A stretch of DNA of 64,000 nt from assembly GCF_009914755.1 (NCBI RefSeq), contig NC_060940.1; one strand, 5' to 3'. Positions 2,758 to 13,325 of this stretch are shown piece after piece. Below the pieces are notes generated by a model. That model was not told the origin of the DNA. It did no database searches and saw only the letters and a program-made list of their open reading frames with translations. This DNA is from the human T2T-CHM13v2.0 reference genome, Homo sapiens. The stretch's first letter is position 1; every line of letters starts with the position of its first letter. The position numbers and the translations under genes are program-made.

Positions 2758-3349
2758 GTGTGTTGAGCCAATGACTAAGATAAAAAGTCTGAAGACTTCT
2801 TTGACCCTCAGAACCCCAGAACCTCCCTTCTGGAAGAAAATTTGCCACTATCTTCTCAAAATGCAAAACTCAAATTCCAGAGGGGTCTTCCAATGTCACC
2901 TTTTCCTTGAAGTCCAAGAGAGGTTCGGAAACAGGCCTGAGGTCCCGTAGCTGCTCAGGGCTGGGCCCTGCATTCAACCCTCGATCTGCTGGTAGCCAAA
3001 GTCCCTATTTTGAACCCTGCCACCCTCCACGGGGAGGATGAAGGGCTTGGAGTTGAACTCAATTAAATCTTCCTCACTCTCTCAGCCAGTTTATTTGTCC
3101 ATTTGAGTCTTAAAGAGGCGTTGATGAGAACTCCACAGGAAATCATGAGACAGCAGAGGTGCTTTGCAGCAGAGAAGGCAGGGCGGGGCAGAACAACCTT
3201 CCCCAGCACGCAGGTCATTAGTTCCATTTGCAAGGGCCACTCCCCGCCAACACTACTACCCTCCAGCTCATTTAATTCAAAATAAATGTACAGGGCAGGA
3301 AAGTCATTGAGGTGCAAGAAAGGAGGGAAGGCTTTAAAAGCGAGCTATG

Positions 3350-3653
3350 GGCCAGGCGTGGTGGCTCACGCCTGTAATCCCAGCACTTCAGGAGGCCAAG
3401 GTGGGAGGATCACCTGAGGTCAGGAGTTCGAGACCAGCCTGGCCAACATGGCAAAACCCCATCTCTACAAAAATTAGCCAGGCATGATGGCAGGTGCCTG
3501 TAATCTCAGCTATTTGGGAGGTTAAGGTAGGAGAATCGCTTGAACCTGGGAGGCGGAGGTTGCAGTGAGTCTAGATTGCGCCATTGCACTCCAGCCTGGG
3601 TGACAGAGTGAGACTCTGTCTCAAAAAATAAATAAATAAAATAAAATAAAAAC
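3350..3653 (+). mobile_element. AluS with TSD
   Basis: TSD aaaagcgagctatg / aaaagtgagctatg. Confidence 0.95.
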
Positions 3654-3744
3654 AAAAGTGAGCTATGAATTTCATTTCCAAGGAAAGGAGAATACGGAAG
3701 AGAGAGTGGAGAAGTTGAAGAGACCCAGAGGAGCATGGCACCAT

Positions 3745-4000
3745 GGGAGAGCTGTGGCTCCAGCGTGCAGCGGCCCTGGGTTCAAATTCTGGCTCTGTCA
3801 TTTCGCGGTTGTGCGAGGGTGTCACATGCTTAGCCTCTCTGAACCTCAGTTTACCCATCTGAAAAATGAGGACCAAAGTGGCACCTATTTCCTGGGGCTG
3901 TTGGGAGGATCCAATGAGACCATGAGCTGATCTATGCATAACACCTGGCTCAGAGCAGGCTCTGGAATGTAGCTCACATATTTTCTGGGCACCTACTGGA
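3745..4000 (+). mobile_element. MIR
   Basis: Core cctctctgaacctcagtttacccatctgaaaaatg. Confidence 0.8.
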
Positions 4001-5328
4001 TGCCAAGCACCATGTGGGGATTTGGCATTGAACAAGACAGGCAAGGCAGTGCCCTTGTGGAGTTCAAGGTCTTGTGAAGAGAACAAGACAGAAAACATGT
4101 GAACGCATAAAACGAGATCATTTCGGGGATTTGCAGGAGGGACAAAGCAAGGTGACTTGAGAAGGTGTTTATTTTAGACAGCACGGTCCAGGGAGGTTTC
4201 TCCAAGGCGAGGACATTGAGGTGAGACTCGGATGGAGCCCATTATGGGGAGCAGCGTCAAAAACAGTGAGCAGGGGAGCCCCTAATCCCATCAGCAAACA
4301 GCTCCCACCTGCCCTGGAATGGCTGCTGAGAGAGGTCCCTGTGGGTCCCCAGGCCTCTGAGAGCTGCCACAGCCCGGCCAGCCTTCCTGAGCTAGTCCCA
4401 TCCTGATGGGGGAATGGGGGGCTTCAGAGTCAACAATGAGGGCTCTGCTTGCGTTTTTATTTCTGATGCCAAGTGGTGTCTATGATGCAGGGTCTGACTT
4501 GGGGCTCTTGACACCTTGCATTTTGGGGATATTAAGTCAAAATCTTAAATGACCACTTAGCGTTAGGCTCTCGGCTATACGCTAGAGACAGACGTGAAGA
4601 AGTCCTGCCTCTCAGGCCATGCTGAGGCTCTCCCCAAGATCTGGGCAGGGCTGCTTCACAGCCATGCCACCCCTCTGCCTCAAGGCAGCTGTGAATCAGT
4701 TTTTGGAGTTCAAATCAGATCGTGCCACCTGTGATTCCATTGTCTTGCAAGTGGCTTCCAAGAGGTAGCCCAAGTTCCTCAAGGTGACATTTCAGGTGTG
4801 TTGCAACCCAGCCCTGCTAAGCCCTCCCGCCTGGCCCCTCCTGCTCCCTGGTCCTCAGTGTGCCAGCAACAGCCATTAGCTGCTGTAGACAGAACCGGAC
4901 ACAAGCATCCATCCTCCTCCTTGAAATTGCATGTGCTGTTCCTCCCATCTAGAATGCCTTTTCCTACCTTCACTGCTCAGCCTGCAGGATGCATCACAGA
5001 TGATGCTGCCTGGTGAACCCTTGCCTAGCAACCCGATCCGTATCTCAAGTGAGGTCAGGTCCAGCTCTGGGATCTACAGGACAACTACACCAAAATCTAA
5101 GACCCCTTCATCCCAGGACCCAGGGAATCACCCCCACCCTTCAGGACCCTGCCAGACCTTCACTCAGCCTGCCTTTCAGGGCACTAAGCCTTTCCATGCC
5201 CAGGTCAATCACAGTCGCACGAGGAAAGAACAAGGAAGTGGTCAGACTCACAGCATCCTTATCGGCAGACCATCCTGCCCACTTTACAAGGAAGGGGACT
5301 GAGGCTTTCACTTTATAAGGTCACTGGG

Positions 5329-5757
5329 TGCTATAGTTTGGTTTATGTGACCCCCTCCAGATCTCAGGTTGAAATTTGATCTCTGCTGTTAGAGATGGAG
5401 CCTAATGGAAGGTGTTTGGGTCATGGGGGAGGACTCCTCATGAATAGATCAATGCCCTCCCTTGTGTGGGACGAGGGTGGAAGTGAGTTCTCACTCTATT
5501 CGTTTCTGCAGGAGCTGGTTGTTGAAAAGAGCCCGGCACCTCCCTCCGTCTCTTGCCTCCTCTCTTGCATGTGACCTCTGCACACAGCAGCTCTCCTTTG
5601 CTTTCCTCCATGAGTGGAAGCAGCCTGAGGCCCTCACCAGAAGCAGATGCAGGCTTCTTGTACAGCCTGCAGAACCATGAGCCAAATAAGCCTCTATTCA
5701 TTGCAAATTACCCAGACACAGGTATTCCTTTACAGCAACACAAACAGACGTAGATGC
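5329..5757 (+). mobile_element. MST (MSTB-like) solo LTR inserted in a MIR
   Basis: tgctatagtttgg...gagccaaataagcct...aattacccag. Confidence 0.88.
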
Positions 5758-5828
5758 CCAACTTGCAAATCAGAGCCTGGATTTGAACCAGATCTTTGGT
5801 TCCTCTGGCTCAAAGTCATCCTCTTTCT

Positions 5829-5900
5829 ACTACATTGGTACAAAAGTAATTGCAGTGTTTGCCACTGAAAGCAATGACAAAACTGCAATTACTCAATGCA
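5829..5900. mobile_element. MADE1 (Hsmar1-derived MITE), right terminus missing
   Basis: ttggtacaaaagtaattgcagtgtttgcca...tgacaaaactgcaattact palindromic core. Confidence 0.85.
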
Positions 5901-10982: not shown

Positions 10983-11287
10983 ATAAATTGGGTGCAGTGT
11001 ATACTGCTCAGGTGATGGGTGCACCAAAATCTCACACATCACACTAAAGATCTTATTCATGTAACCAAACACCACCTGTTGTTCCCCAATAACCTATGGA
11101 AATAAAAAGAATTTTTTTAATGGGCAAAAGACTTAAATAGGCATTTCTCCAAAGAAGATATACAAACGGCCAATGAGTACATGAGAAGATGGTTCACATC
11201 ACCAGTCATCAGGGAAATGCAAATCAAAACCACCATGAGATGCCACCTCACACCCATTAGGATGGCTCCTATCAGAAAAGAAAAGAG

Positions 11288-11610
11288 AGCCCGGGTGTGG
11301 TGGCTCACACCTGTAATCCCAGCATTTTGGGAGGCCAAGGCAGGTGGATCACCTGAGGTCAGGAGTTCAAGACCAGCCTGGCGAACATGGTGAAACCCCA
11401 TCTTTACTAAAAATACAAAAATTAGCTGGGCATGGTGGCATGTGCCTGTAATCCCAGCTGCTCGGGAAGCTGAGACAGGAGAATCGCTTGAACCCGGGAG
11501 GCAGAGGTCACAGTGAGCCGAGATCACGCCACTGTACTCCAGCCTGGGCAACAAAGCAACACTCCATCTCAAAATAATAATAATAATAATAAATGAAAGA
11601 ATAAAAGAAA
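11288..11610 (+). mobile_element. AluS
   Basis: Full dimer, (AAT)n tail. Confidence 0.94.
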
Positions 11611-11861
11611 AAAGAAAAACCTAACAAGTGTTGGCCAGGATGTGGAGAAAACGGAACGCTTGTGCATTGCTGGTGGAAATGTAAAATGGTGCAGCTACTA
11701 TGGAAAGCAGTAGGACAGTTCCTCAAACAAGTCAGCATAGAATTACCATATGATCCAGCAATTCTAGTTCTGAATATACACCTCAAAAATTGAAAGCAGG
11801 GACTCAAACAGAGTCCCCACACCCATGATCACAGCAGCATTATTCACAACAGCCAACAGAC

Positions 11862-12068
11862 CCTGAGGTCAGGAGTTTGAGACCAACCTGGCCAACATGG
11901 TGAAACTCCATCTCTACCAAAAATATAAAAATTAGCTGGATGTGGTGGCCAGCACCTGTAGTCCCAGCTACTTGGGAAGCTGAGGTGGGAGTATCACTTG
12001 AACCCGGGAGGCAGAGGTTGCCGTGAGCCAAGATTGTGCCACTGCACTCCAGCCTGGGGCATAGAGCA
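11862..12068 (+). repeat. Headless, tailless Alu piece that is an inverted copy of 12588-12794
   Basis: Shares private variants (ggccagcacc, gagtatcac, ttgccgtgag, ctaccaaaaatata) with the Alu at 12557-12857; ~5 differences in 207 nt. Confidence 0.93.
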
Positions 12069-12556
12069 TGTTAGTGTATCTTCACAACACACAACAGCCA
12101 ACAGCCAAGGGACCCACCTGTCCCTCAACAGACAAATGGATAAACCAGGTGTGTTACATCCATGCGATGGCATATTAGCCTTAGGAAGAAATGGAATTCT
12201 CACACGTGCTGCACCAGAAATGAACCTTGAAGACATTATGTTTCATGAAATAAACCAGACACGCAAATACTGGTGATTCCACTTAGATGAGGTACCCAAA
12301 GTAGTCAAATTCATAGAGATAGGAAGTAGAATGGTGATTGCCAGAGGCTGGAAGGAGAGGCAGATGGGAAGTGAGTGCTTAATGACTACAGAGTTTCAGT
12401 TTGGGAAGATGAAAAAGTTCTGGAGGTAAATGGTGATGATGGTTGCAGAGAATGTGGATGTATTTAATGCCACTGAACTGTACACTTAAAAATGGTTAAA
12501 ATGGTAAATTTTATGTTATATATTTTACCATAATAAAAAAAATTAAAACTTCTTCT

Positions 12557-12857
12557 TTTTTTTTTTTTTTTTTTTGAGACTGAGTCTTGCTCTATTCCCC
12601 AGGCTAGAGTGCAGTGGCACAATCTCGGCTCACGGCAACCTCTGCCTCCCGGGTTCAAGTGATACTCCCACCTCAGCCTCCCAAGTAGCTGGGACTACAG
12701 GTGCTGGCCACCACATCCAGCTAATTTTTATATTTTTGGTAGAGATGGAGTTTCACCATGTTGGCCAGGTTGGTCTAAAACTCCTGACCTCAGGTGATCC
12801 ACTTGCCTTGGCCTCCCAAAGTGCTAGGATTATAGACGTGAGCCACCGCACCTGGCC
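12557..12857 (-). mobile_element. AluS
   Basis: Poly(T) plus full dimer. Confidence 0.95.
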
Positions 12858-13325
12858 AAAAATGAGAACTTCTTAAAAGACATCTGAGAAAAGGCAAGCC
12901 ACAGAGTGGGAAAAGGTATTTGCAACATATACAAGCAACAAAGATTATCGTGTGTAAAAAAGACTCCTATAAATCGGTAAGAAAAAGACAATCTAATAGA
13001 AACCGTGGCAAAAGATGCAAACAGGCACTTCATGCAAGAGAAGTTCCAAATAGCCATAAACACAAAAAGATGTTCAACCTCATTAGTAATCAGGAAAACG
13101 TAAATTGGAAATCACAATGTGATACCATTTCTCACCCACCAGATTGGCAAAATTTATAAATCTGATGAATGCCAAGTATTGTCAAGGATAGAGAGATGGG
13201 AATTTTCATAGCCCACTAGTGGGGGTGTAAACTGGTACACACACTTTGCAAAATGGGATAGAAAACTTAATAATGTTGAAGATACACTAAGTCAACCCAG
13301 GAATTCCACATCTGGGTAGATGCGA
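12858..13325 (+). mobile_element. L1ME-like ORF2 fragment
   Basis: aggcaagccacagagtgggaaaaggtatttgcaa...aaaagatgttcaacctcattagtaatcagg. Confidence 0.75.

What the first reader, a model, noticed from the sequence alone, without database searches (positions are those of the whole stretch)
3206..13290. Three multi-jump template-switch scars of similar age within ~10 kb of a GSG1L intron
Seen: three separate structures (5.9-7.8 kb, 10.67-10.98 kb, 11.86-12.1 kb) are each built from sequence copied from nearby, 40 bp to 2.7 kb away and mostly inverted. None has a retrotransposition signature; most junctions show 1-4 nt microhomology. Hand-counted copy-to-donor divergence is similar in all: ~8/480, ~4/105, ~2/90 outside the A-tail, and ~5/207. 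Established: microhomology-joined templated inserts are the signature of FoSTeS/MMBIR or Pol-theta end joining. Inference: this may be the fossil of one germline repair episode, a kb-scale chromoanasynthesis in a hominoid ancestor, or of a locus prone to fork collapse. Repeat masking would hide it as ordinary Alu fragments.
Basis: partly seen in the sequence, partly recalled or inferred. Interest (0 to 1): 0.8.

Follow-up and report, generated by a model that had tools for sequence, protein, structure and literature searches.

The report
Cluster of local template-switch copy scars
Within about 10 kb of a GSG1L intron, three old DNA-repair scars were built by copying nearby sequence, mostly backwards, and one of them also flipped an 862-base segment; the kind of scar is known, but three so close together and of similar age is unusual.

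Summary
The window holds four local copy pairs of 100 nt or more at 94% identity or more, and all four lie at 3.2-12.8 kb.

- **Structure 1** is more than an insert. An 862-nt spacer is inverted between 478-nt inverted arms, with a 104-nt filler copied from 2.7 kb upstream. One Hsmar1/MADE1 mini-element is split across the two breakpoints.
- **Structure 2** is a clean 132-nt fold-back insert in an L1. L1 copies elsewhere in the genome show the uninterrupted site.
- **Structure 3** is a 207-nt inverted insert, plus a 14-nt inverted piece from 1.2 kb downstream and a 17-nt target duplication.

None shows the marks of retrotransposition. An L1 at 61.2 kb shows what those marks look like.

The mechanism class, replication or repair template switching, is well supported and already known. 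One episode versus several cannot be settled here. The divergences are homogeneous but weakly informative (Bayes factor 2.6-10.9). No ape orthologues were available. Twenty random 10-kb control stretches held no such pair.

The parts
3206..3312 (+). Donor of the 104-nt filler J. It lies 2.7 kb upstream of the copy, in direct orientation.
   Evidence: 3 mismatches in 104 aligned plus a 3-nt indel; only these two copies exist in the genome.
5833..5893 (+). Hsmar1-derived MADE1 mini-element, cut short inside its 3' inverted repeat at the left breakpoint of structure 1.
   Evidence: Searches show an internal palindrome (DNA fold -15.8 kcal/mol, z -3.6); its 5' arm matches the published 28-nt Hsmar1 TIR at 20 of 22 positions. 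The TIR comes from PMC9062482 Table 1.
5894..5897 (.). Four bases (CAAT) of unknown origin between the cut MADE1 and the filler.
   Evidence: no local template found.
5898..6001 (+). Filler J, a templated copy of 3206-3312 sitting exactly between two other novel junctions.
   Evidence: Its last base (G at 6001) is shared with arm B.
6001..6478 (-). Arm B, the inverted duplicate of arm B'. It continues without a break into the rest of a full Alu (6335-6632).
   Evidence: 8 mismatches in 478 plus a T-run indel. family D7 shows the Alu collinear across 6478/6479.
6479..7340 (-). Spacer S (862 nt), inverted relative to the left flank.
   Evidence: Its right end carries the missing outer end of the MADE1 3' repeat in reverse orientation. 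Its left end is continuous with arm B through the Alu.
7333..7345 (-). Outer 13 nt of the MADE1 terminal repeat, preceded by TA, at the junction of S with B'. Bases 7341-7345 overlap the start of arm B' as 3-5 nt of microhomology.
   Evidence: Joined to the reverse complement of 5860-5893, it rebuilds the 28-nt TIR at 24 of 28 positions with a 2-nt gap. That scores 19, reached by 0.005% of 20,000 random extensions.
7341..7822 (+). Arm B', taken as the original copy. It starts in mid-Alu and runs through the Alu A-tail into 334 nt of unique sequence.
10670..10804 (+). Donor of structure 2: the last ~87 nt of an Alu, its 33-nt A-tail and 14 nt of flank.
10845..10982 (-). Structure 2, an inverted copy. 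132 nt are new (10849-10980), with AAAG (10845-10848) and CT (10981-10982) shared with the L1 target. It makes a palindrome with ~135-nt arms and a 40-nt loop.
   Evidence: L1 paralogues L024 and L026 run straight across the site, so this is a clean insertion that lost 1 nt. DNA fold -157.5 kcal/mol, z -22.
11843..11859 (+). L1 target of structure 3, first copy of the 17-nt target duplication.
   Evidence: both flanks of the insert overlap on the in-window L1 paralogue at 9440-9700.
11862..12068 (+). Structure 3 main insert, an inverted copy of an internal piece of the Alu at 12555-12858. It has no Alu ends and no A-tail. Two orphan bases (AC) precede it and two (TG) follow it.
   Evidence: (5 mismatches in 207).
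12071..12084 (-). Second templated piece of structure 3 (14 nt), the reverse complement of 13277-13290. Its last 4 nt (TTCA) overlap the resumed L1.
   Evidence: 22 of 5000 unique-sequence 20-mers have a 14-mer recurring within 5 kb (0.44%).
12081..12104 (+). Re-copied L1 target, the second copy of the 17-nt duplication, with a 7-nt internal slip.
12588..12794 (-). Donor of the 207-nt insert, inside a full-length Alu on the minus strand.
13277..13290 (+). Donor of the 14-nt piece, 1.2 kb downstream of it.

Best explanation
The three structures are fossils of DNA-templated template switching during replication-fork repair. This is the FoSTeS/MMBIR class, or large versions of the 'four-point' switch-and-return events. 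In each case a growing DNA end left its template and copied a nearby stretch, usually from the opposite strand. It then returned within 0-17 nt of where it had left.

**Structure 1**
- Synthesis left inside the hairpin-forming MADE1 element and picked up 104 nt from 2.7 kb upstream.
- Then either it copied about 1.34 kb backwards (arm plus spacer) before resuming at the start of arm B', or it inserted the filler plus arm B and the new 478-nt inverted repeat later flipped the spacer.
- Both routes give today's sequence: an inverted 862-nt spacer between inverted arms.

**Structure 2.** The end folded back 48 nt, copied 132 nt through an Alu A-tail, and returned with the loss of one base.

**Structure 3.** The end copied 207 nt from an Alu 0.5-0.7 kb ahead, then 14 nt from 1.2 kb ahead. 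It resumed 17 nt behind its departure point.

**Shown and inferred**
- Shown: the copies, their donors, the junction sequences, the undisturbed target sites for structures 2 and 3, and the split MADE1.
- Inferred: the enzymology, the direction of synthesis and the number of episodes.

I put one episode and several episodes at about even odds.
For: **The pairs stand out from background**
- Four pairs at 94-98% stand against a background of mostly 70-88% among other self-hits, mostly Alu-Alu.
- Donors and copies are unique to this locus genome-wide, or far closer to each other than to any scored relative (98% against 90% or less; 40 of 3001 candidates scored).

**The copies are insertions into known sequence**
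- Structure 2 interrupts an L1 that is continuous in paralogues L024 and L026.
- The flanks of structure 3 overlap by about 17 nt on an in-window L1 paralogue.

**Structure 1**
- Joining the right end of the spacer to the cut MADE1 rebuilds the published 28-nt Hsmar1 TIR at 24 of 28 positions (score 19). One of 20,000 random extensions scored as well.
- The end of the inverted arm coincides with the filler junction at 6001.
- The Alu at 6335-6632 is unbroken across 6478/6479.

**Junctions**
- Three of eight have 3 nt or more of microhomology (p=0.006).
- Three others carry 2-4 orphan bases.

**Not retrotransposition**
- The copies have no terminal A-tails and lack Alu ends.
- A true L1 twin-priming insert at 61.2 kb has an A-tail and a 15-nt target duplication.

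**Substitutions.** Where they can be polarised in the Alu parts, changes fall on both donor and copy. For pair D: 2 on the donor, 2 on the copy, 1 ambiguous.

**Literature (passages read)**
- Event types 3-2-1-4 and 1-3-4-2 of the four-point model make exactly an inverted repeat, and an inverted repeat with an inverted spacer (PMC5453318).
- The longest such event reported in haplotype assemblies is 318 bp (PMC9435742).
Against: - No outgroup sequence was available, so the ancestral state of structure 1 rests on one split 80-bp element.
- A rival join, the spacer end with the sequence after arm B', also resembles the TIR (18 of 21 positions, score 14). Only 1.4% of random extensions reach that score.
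- Microhomology of at least 1 nt is no commoner than chance (5 of 8, p=0.24).
- The 14-nt second jump of structure 3 is only moderately secure (0.44% of controls).
- A long A/T tract, reported to be enriched near departure points (PMC7954356), lies near only 1 of the 3 departure points.
- Structure 3 returns behind its departure point. That class was not seen among the short events of PMC5453318.
- Sequence alone cannot separate fork-based switching from break-primed repair synthesis.
Confidence: 0.85

Rival explanations
1. One episode. A single compromised or recombination-restarted fork in a great-ape ancestor made all eight or more junctions in one passage over about 6.2 kb.
For: - All four pairs lie in 9.6 kb of a 64-kb window.
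- The only qualifying pair in 20 random 10-kb stretches is two L1 3' ends, not a local copy.
- Divergences are homogeneous (p=0.83). The Bayes factor for one age is 2.6-10.9.
- Template switching is frequent at the start of break-induced replication, which stabilises after about 10 kb (PMC3678771, passage).
- Restarted forks are prone to template switching (PMC6358216 and PMC9701231, abstracts in the listing only).
- Two adjacent switch events in one human variant are reported (PMC9435742, passage).
Against: - The counts are tiny (2 to 11 differences per structure), so ages differing three-fold would look the same.
- The structures are separated by 2.8 kb and 0.9 kb of normal collinear sequence.
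- The control gives only an upper bound of 0.118 events per 10 kb. That would still allow about 78 chance clusters genome-wide.
- No excess of further short local matches was seen in the tract.
Confidence: 0.45
2. Several separate episodes at one locus. Either the place is prone to fork collapse, or the first event created a long inverted repeat or palindrome that itself stalled later forks. Chance clustering is the limiting case.
For: - The products are strong hairpin formers: a palindrome at -157.5 kcal/mol and a 478-nt inverted repeat at 98%.
- Palindromes and hairpins are named as causes of fork problems (PMC3678771, passage).
- The divergence intervals are wide (0.3-8.3% for the smallest pair).
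- Random stretches do hold older low-copy local pairs at 85-92% (L010, L017, L019), so local duplication is not rare over long times.
Against: - The 10-kb tract holds no older or younger pair of the same kind.
- The similar divergences favour a single age modestly.
Confidence: 0.4
3. Structure 1 arose in two steps. First the filler and arm B were inserted cleanly into the MADE1, the same design as structure 3. Later, recombination between the two 478-nt arms flipped the spacer.
For: - It yields exactly the present sequence (reasoned).
- It explains why the break in the MADE1 lost at most 2 nt, as in structure 2, where 1 nt was lost.
- Inversions between inverted repeats recur often: 11 of 16 tested (PMC3961182, passage).
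Against: - It needs two events where one 1-3-4-2 type switch suffices (PMC5453318).
- The inversions studied in that paper span 5.1-226 kb. Their repeat sizes are not in the passages I read, so flipping between 478-nt arms is an extrapolation.
Confidence: 0.35
4. Structure 1 has no inversion. Arm B' and the filler are two plain inserts, and the TIR-like 13-mer at 7333-7345 is the start of a separate solitary Hsmar1 repeat that continues after arm B'.
For: - The spacer end joined to 7827 onwards matches TIR positions 1-20 at 18 of 21 (score 14). Only 1.4% of random extensions reach this.
- About two-thirds of roughly 7000 Hsmar1 TIR-related sequences are solitary (PMC9062482, passage).
Against: - It needs two Hsmar1 pieces, each cut exactly at a junction, whose extents happen to add up to one whole repeat (score 19 against 14).
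- It leaves unexplained why the arm ends exactly at the filler junction.
Confidence: 0.12
5. Retrotransposition, or RNA-templated repair using Alu or intron transcripts.
For: - Three of the four copies contain Alu sequence.
- Structure 3 has a 17-nt target duplication.
Against: - The copies have no terminal A-tail.
- The 207-nt piece lacks both Alu ends.
- Arm B' carries 334 nt of unique flank, and the donors lie within 2.7 kb.
- Pieces in both orientations are joined to each other.
- The genuine L1 insert at 61.2 kb shows the expected marks.
Confidence: 0.03
6. Gene conversion between pre-existing inverted Alu fragments, or an assembly artefact.
For: Neighbouring inverted Alus can exchange sequence. 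Inverted repeats are hard to assemble.
Against: - High identity ends exactly where the fragments end, and the target L1s have no Alu there.
- Arm B and the filler are not repeats at all.
- The copies differ from their donors at 18 of 873 sites, which a duplicated read artefact would not produce.
Confidence: 0.03

Closest known systems
Template-switch mutations of the four-point model (Löytynoja & Goldman 2017, PMC5453318; Löytynoja 2022, PMC9435742; Walker et al. 2021, PMC7954356). Passages read.
   Same: - A reverse-complement copy of nearby sequence replaces or is inserted at the departure point.
- Structure 2 has the 3-2-1-4 layout, which makes a new inverted repeat.
- Structure 1 has the 1-3-4-2 layout, an inverted repeat with an inverted spacer.
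- Return is within a few bases of departure.
   Different: - Size: 132, 207 and about 1340 nt copied. The published events are mostly tens of bases, with the longest reported at 318 bp.
- Structures 1 and 3 have an extra jump. The model explicitly does not cover that.
- Structure 3 returns behind its departure point, a class those authors did not observe.
FoSTeS/MMBIR complex rearrangements and chromoanasynthesis. PMC3678771 passages. PMC6258378, PMC11293582 and PMC5120786 seen in the listing only.
   Same: Serial template switches, microhomology or a few inserted bases at junctions, templated inserts, inverted segments and net copy gain.
   Different: - Scale is 0.1-1.3 kb per segment within 10 kb, not tens of kb to Mb.
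- It is fixed in the reference and apparently neutral.
- Whether the switches were serial within one event is unknown.
Inversions flanked by inverted duplications from staggered breaks (Ranz et al. 2007, PMC1885836). Listing and start of abstract only; the model itself is recalled.
   Same: Structure 1 is an inverted segment with an inverted duplicate of one end at the other breakpoint.
   Different: - Here only one breakpoint is duplicated, by 478 nt.
- The other breakpoint carries a 104-nt filler templated 2.7 kb away. Simple break and rejoin does not predict that.
L1 twin priming, which accounts for about 85% of human inversions under 2 kb (Porubsky et al. preprint 10.1101/2021.12.20.472354). 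Abstract and passages.
   Same: A small inverted segment next to a direct one.
   Different: - The three structures have no L1 body, no A-tail and no endonuclease-type target duplication.
- A true example in the same window (61227-61410) has all of these.
Fold-back inverted duplications (PMC3907307, PMC10622511). Listing and start of abstracts only.
   Same: Structure 2 is a fold-back copy with a short spacer of 40 nt.
   Different: It is a 132-nt patch with return to the original template, not a chromosome-scale duplication with terminal loss.

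Membership tests
Template-switch mutation (four-point model) | The inserted fragment is the reverse complement of nearby sequence. | tested here: met
   Arms B, C, D and the 14-mer are inverted copies from 48 nt to 1.2 kb away. The filler J is direct and so lies outside the model.
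Template-switch mutation (four-point model) | Synthesis returns to the original template close to the departure point, so the flanks are collinear. | tested here: met
   Structure 2 lost 1 nt. Structure 3 duplicated 17 nt. Structure 1 lost at most 2 nt of the MADE1.
Template-switch mutation (four-point model) | A single switch and return, short range (tens to hundreds of nt). | tested here: not met
   Met by structure 2 only. Structures 1 and 3 have extra jumps, with donors 2.7 kb and 1.2 kb away.
FoSTeS/MMBIR | Microhomology at junctions beyond chance. | tested here: inconclusive
   At least 3 nt at 3 of 8 junctions (p=0.006), but at least 1 nt at only 5 of 8 (p=0.24). Three junctions have orphan bases.
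FoSTeS/MMBIR | Two or more templated segments joined in series in one product. | tested here: met
   The filler J abuts arm B at 6001. The 207-nt and 14-nt pieces are 2 nt apart.
FoSTeS/MMBIR | Arises during replication or break-induced replication. | not testable with these tools
   Sequence alone cannot show the enzymology.
Chromoanasynthesis (single catastrophic event) | All junctions formed in one event. | not testable with these tools
   This needs ape orthologues. The only proxy is divergence: homogeneous (p=0.83), Bayes factor 2.6-10.9.
Retrotransposition (target-primed, including twin priming) | A-tail at the 3' end of the insert together with a target-site duplication. | tested here: not met
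   No copy has a terminal A-tail. Only structure 3 has a target duplication. The positive control at 61.2 kb has both.
Alu-Alu or other homologous-recombination rearrangement | Breakpoints lie inside aligned homologous repeats, giving chimeric elements. | tested here: not met
   Junctions join Alu to MADE1, Alu to L1 and unique sequence to unique sequence. A later recombinational flip of the spacer in structure 1 is not excluded.

The most novel reading that the evidence does not exclude
One recombination-restarted or break-induced replication run in a great-ape ancestor mis-stepped at least eight times within 6.2 kb, drawing on templates across 10 kb. It began at a hairpin-forming MADE1 element and left three separate scars. 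That would be a fixed germline fossil of the error-prone first kilobases of repair replication, so far characterised mainly in yeast. It would also imply that some 'Alu fragments' in annotations are repair patches.
Probability: 0.3. Interest if true: 0.6.

Novelty: new member of a known kind. Interest (0 to 1): 0.42.

Why it matters
- **Size range.** Template-switch events are catalogued mostly at tens of bases, because the search methods look only nearby and mask repeats. These examples run from 132 nt to about 1.3 kb and partly involve Alu sequence. They show that the same process operates at a scale between 'mutation clusters' and clinical rearrangements.
- **Annotation.** Repeat annotation probably files such copies as truncated Alus.
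- **Testable question.** If the three scars share one origin, the locus would show directly how far and how often a repaired fork mis-steps in the human germline. The complete ape genomes can decide this.
- **Side effect.** The events placed a 478-nt, 98% inverted repeat and a 135-nt palindrome inside an intron of a gene. In pre-mRNA these would form unusually perfect double-stranded RNA.
- **Limit.** None of this points to a function. The most likely status is a neutral fossil.

Tried and rejected
- **Larger density control.** The control stays at 200 kb plus the other 54 kb of the window.
- **Short exact matches.** A scan for local matches of 13 nt or more, as a sign of extra small switches in the tract, was uninformative. 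Controls average 6 per 10 kb from ordinary repeats, and the tract shows no excess beyond the known pairs.
- **Independent test of spacer orientation.** I searched the genome with the flanks of the MADE1. The left flank is an old interspersed repeat and the spacer end is unique, so no family spans the join.
- **A/T tracts.** A tract of 8 nt or more lies within 150 nt of only 1 of the 3 departure points.
- **Literature.** A search for GSG1L with 'inversion' returned 6 papers. By title and abstract start, none concerns this kb-scale structure, and I read only the listing.
- **Control pair in L008.** The one qualifying pair among the controls turned out to be two independent young L1 3' ends, each with its own A-tail, so I did not count it.
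- **Error-prone copying.** Polarising substitutions showed no excess on the copies, although only 9 sites could be examined.
- **Alu subfamilies.** I did not assign subfamilies to the donor Alus, because no repeat library is available.

Full report
**What is there**

A self-comparison of the whole 64-kb window finds only four local pairs of 100 nt or more at 94% identity or more. All four lie between 3.2 and 12.8 kb.

| Pair | Coordinates | Orientation |
|---|---|---|
| J | 3206-3312 and 5898-6001 | direct |
| B | 6001-6478 and 7341-7822 | inverted |
| C | 10670-10804 and 10845-10982 | inverted |
| D | 11862-12068 and 12588-12794 | inverted |

Other self-hits of 80 nt or more in the window, mostly Alu-Alu, sit mostly at 70-88%.

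In the 3.1-Gb assembly, the unique part of arm B occurs only at its two places. The same is true of the donor of J. The 207-nt copy matches its neighbour at 98%. No other scored Alu exceeds 90%, although only 40 of 3001 candidates were scored.

**Structure 1 is an inversion with an inverted duplication and a filler**

- A palindromic mini-element sits at 5833-5893. Its 5' arm matches the 28-nt Hsmar1 terminal repeat printed in PMC9062482 Table 1 at 20 of 22 positions (passages read; alignment). So it is a MADE1. It stops inside its 3' repeat, right at the junction with the filler.
- The missing outer 13 nt, preceded by TA, lie in reverse orientation at 7333-7345. That is exactly where the spacer meets arm B'. 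Joining the two pieces rebuilds the repeat at 24 of 28 positions with a 2-nt gap (score 19). One of 20,000 random extensions did as well.
- The Alu at 6335-6632 runs unbroken across the boundary between arm and spacer at 6478/6479 (family D7). Arm B' starts abruptly in mid-Alu.
- The outer end of arm B coincides with the end of the filler at 6001.

Together these give an ancestral order of left flank with whole MADE1, then the spacer in the opposite orientation, then arm B', then the right flank. Today's order is left flank, 4 orphan bases, 104-nt filler from 2.7 kb upstream, arm B, inverted spacer, arm B'.

A rival join also resembles the repeat. The spacer end followed by the sequence after arm B' scores 14 (18 of 21 positions). 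Only 1.4% of random extensions reach that, so I keep this no-inversion reading at about 12%.

Two routes give the same present sequence:
- one backward copy of about 1.34 kb, which is layout 1-3-4-2 of the four-point model (PMC5453318, passages);
- a clean insertion of the filler plus arm B, followed by a flip of the spacer between the new arms. Inversions between inverted repeats recur often, in 11 of 16 tested (PMC3961182, passages).

**Structure 2 is a clean fold-back insert**

- The surrounding sequence at 10441-11116 is a 5'-truncated young L1 3' end, flanked by a 15-nt direct repeat inside an older L1.
- Two genomic paralogues, L024 and L026, run straight through the site. The third fetched locus, L025, did not show the region in the orientation I printed, and I left it out.
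- Against them, the window has 132 extra bases at 10849-10980. These are the reverse complement of the last ~87 nt of the adjacent Alu, its A-tail and 10 nt of flank.
- The insert shares AAAG on one side and CT on the other with the L1, and one L1 base was lost.
- The result is a palindrome with ~135-nt arms and a 40-nt loop (DNA fold -157.5 kcal/mol, z -22).
- This is layout 3-2-1-4 of the four-point model.
- A 33-nt A-tract lies 59 nt before the departure point. That agrees with the enrichment of such tracts near departure points (PMC7954356, passages).

**Structure 3 is multi-jump**

Within an old L1 (about 11107-12545, read), the sequence runs in this order:
1. 2 orphan bases;
2. 207 nt copied in reverse from inside the Alu at 12555-12858, lacking both Alu ends and any A-tail;
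3. 2 orphan bases;
4. 14 nt that are the reverse complement of 13277-13290;
5. the L1 again, resuming 17 nt behind where it stopped, with a 4-nt overlap (TTCA) and a 7-nt internal slip.

An in-window L1 paralogue confirms that the two flanks overlap rather than abut. The 14-nt match is moderately secure: 22 of 5000 unique 20-mers have a 14-mer recurring within 5 kb.

**Not retrotransposition, conversion or artefact**

- No copy ends in its own A-tail.
- A genuine L1 twin-priming insert at 61227-61410 has an inverted 5' piece, an A-tail and a 15-nt target duplication. This matters because about 85% of human inversions under 2 kb are of that kind (preprint 10.1101/2021.12.20.472354, abstract and passages).
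- High identity ends where the fragments end, and the L1 targets hold no Alu. That argues against gene conversion.
- The copies differ from their donors at 18 of 873 sites. Where they can be polarised, changes fall on both partners. That argues against an assembly duplicate.

**Junctions**

I read the eight junctions by eye. Microhomology is 0, 1, 3-5, 4, 2, 0, 0 and 4 nt. At least 3 nt at 3 of 8 exceeds chance (p=0.006). At least 1 nt at 5 of 8 does not (p=0.24). Three junctions carry 2-4 orphan bases.

**Age and number of events**

- Pooled divergence is 18/873 = 2.06% (95% CI 1.2-3.2%). Excluding CpG-context sites it is 13/873.
- The four values are homogeneous (Monte Carlo p=0.83), but each interval is wide. 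The Bayes factor for one common age over three independent ages is 2.6, 6.5 or 10.9 for prior ranges of 6, 10 or 13%.
- Against recalled species divergences, this places the events between the human-chimpanzee and human-orangutan splits.
- Exchange between inverted arms could make pair B look younger than it is.

**Clustering**

- I fetched 20 random 10-kb stretches, drawn by a seeded script before any was seen. One had a qualifying pair, and that pair is two independent L1 3' ends, each with its own A-tail.
- The other 54 kb of the window has none.
- So 0 events in 254 kb stand against 3 structures in 10 kb. The 95% upper bound is 0.118 per 10 kb. That gives P(3 or more)=2.5e-4 per bin, or up to about 78 such bins genome-wide by chance. 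With one event per 254 kb the figure would be about 3.
- Older low-copy local pairs at 85-92% do occur in controls.
- Published catalogues suggest that events this long are rare: the longest of 3049-3934 per individual was 318 bp (PMC9435742, passages). That makes chance clustering less likely than my bound allows.

**Reading**

The mechanism class is well supported and already known: template switching during replication-associated repair. What is unusual is the size, the extra jumps and the clustering.

A single error-prone run is mechanistically reasonable. Template switching is frequent at the start of break-induced replication, which stabilises after about 10 kb (PMC3678771, passages). 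Restarted forks are prone to switching (abstracts in the listing only).

A cascade is equally reasonable, in which the first palindrome or inverted repeat stalls later forks. I put one episode at about 0.45, several episodes at about 0.4, and the remainder on the other readings. Ape orthologues would decide it. No tool here provides them, and the supplements of the inversion catalogues were not consulted.

Noticed in passing
window 61227-61410: A short L1 insert with the classic twin-priming look. It has an inverted 5' piece (61227-61348), a direct 3' end piece (61347-61398), an A-tail and a 15-nt target duplication on both sides. It served as an in-window example of a retrotransposition-made inversion.
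   Followed up: partly
window 10441-11116 within about 10197-12545: Nested repeats. A 5'-truncated younger L1 3' end is flanked by a 15-nt direct repeat inside an older L1. An Alu (10477-10790) then inserted into the younger L1. This gives the order of events before structure 2.
   Followed up: partly
window 6001-7822 and 10670-10982 (minus-strand GSG1L intron): The 478-nt inverted repeat at 98% and the 135-nt palindrome would form unusually perfect double-stranded RNA in the pre-mRNA, far better paired than ordinary inverted Alu pairs at about 83%. They could be strong RNA-editing substrates. This was not tested.
   Followed up: no
window 5705-5755: A ~45-50-nt core just left of the MADE1 matches many places in the genome at 91-97%. 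It appears to be the conserved core of an old interspersed repeat (from memory it resembles MIR), into whose end the MADE1 inserted.
   Followed up: partly
L010 2066-2261 / 3785-3978; L017 6213-6978 / 8804-9591; L019 7482-7573 / 8490-8581: Random control stretches contain older low-copy local pairs at 85-92% identity, both direct and inverted. These could be older local duplications or paired repeat elements, and I did not classify them.
   Followed up: no
window 34407-34472 / 38369-38434, 35850-35901 / 38598-38646, 54330-54770 / 62464-63174: Low-copy direct pairs at 77-88% identity elsewhere in the window. They are probably members of low-copy interspersed repeat families.
   Followed up: no
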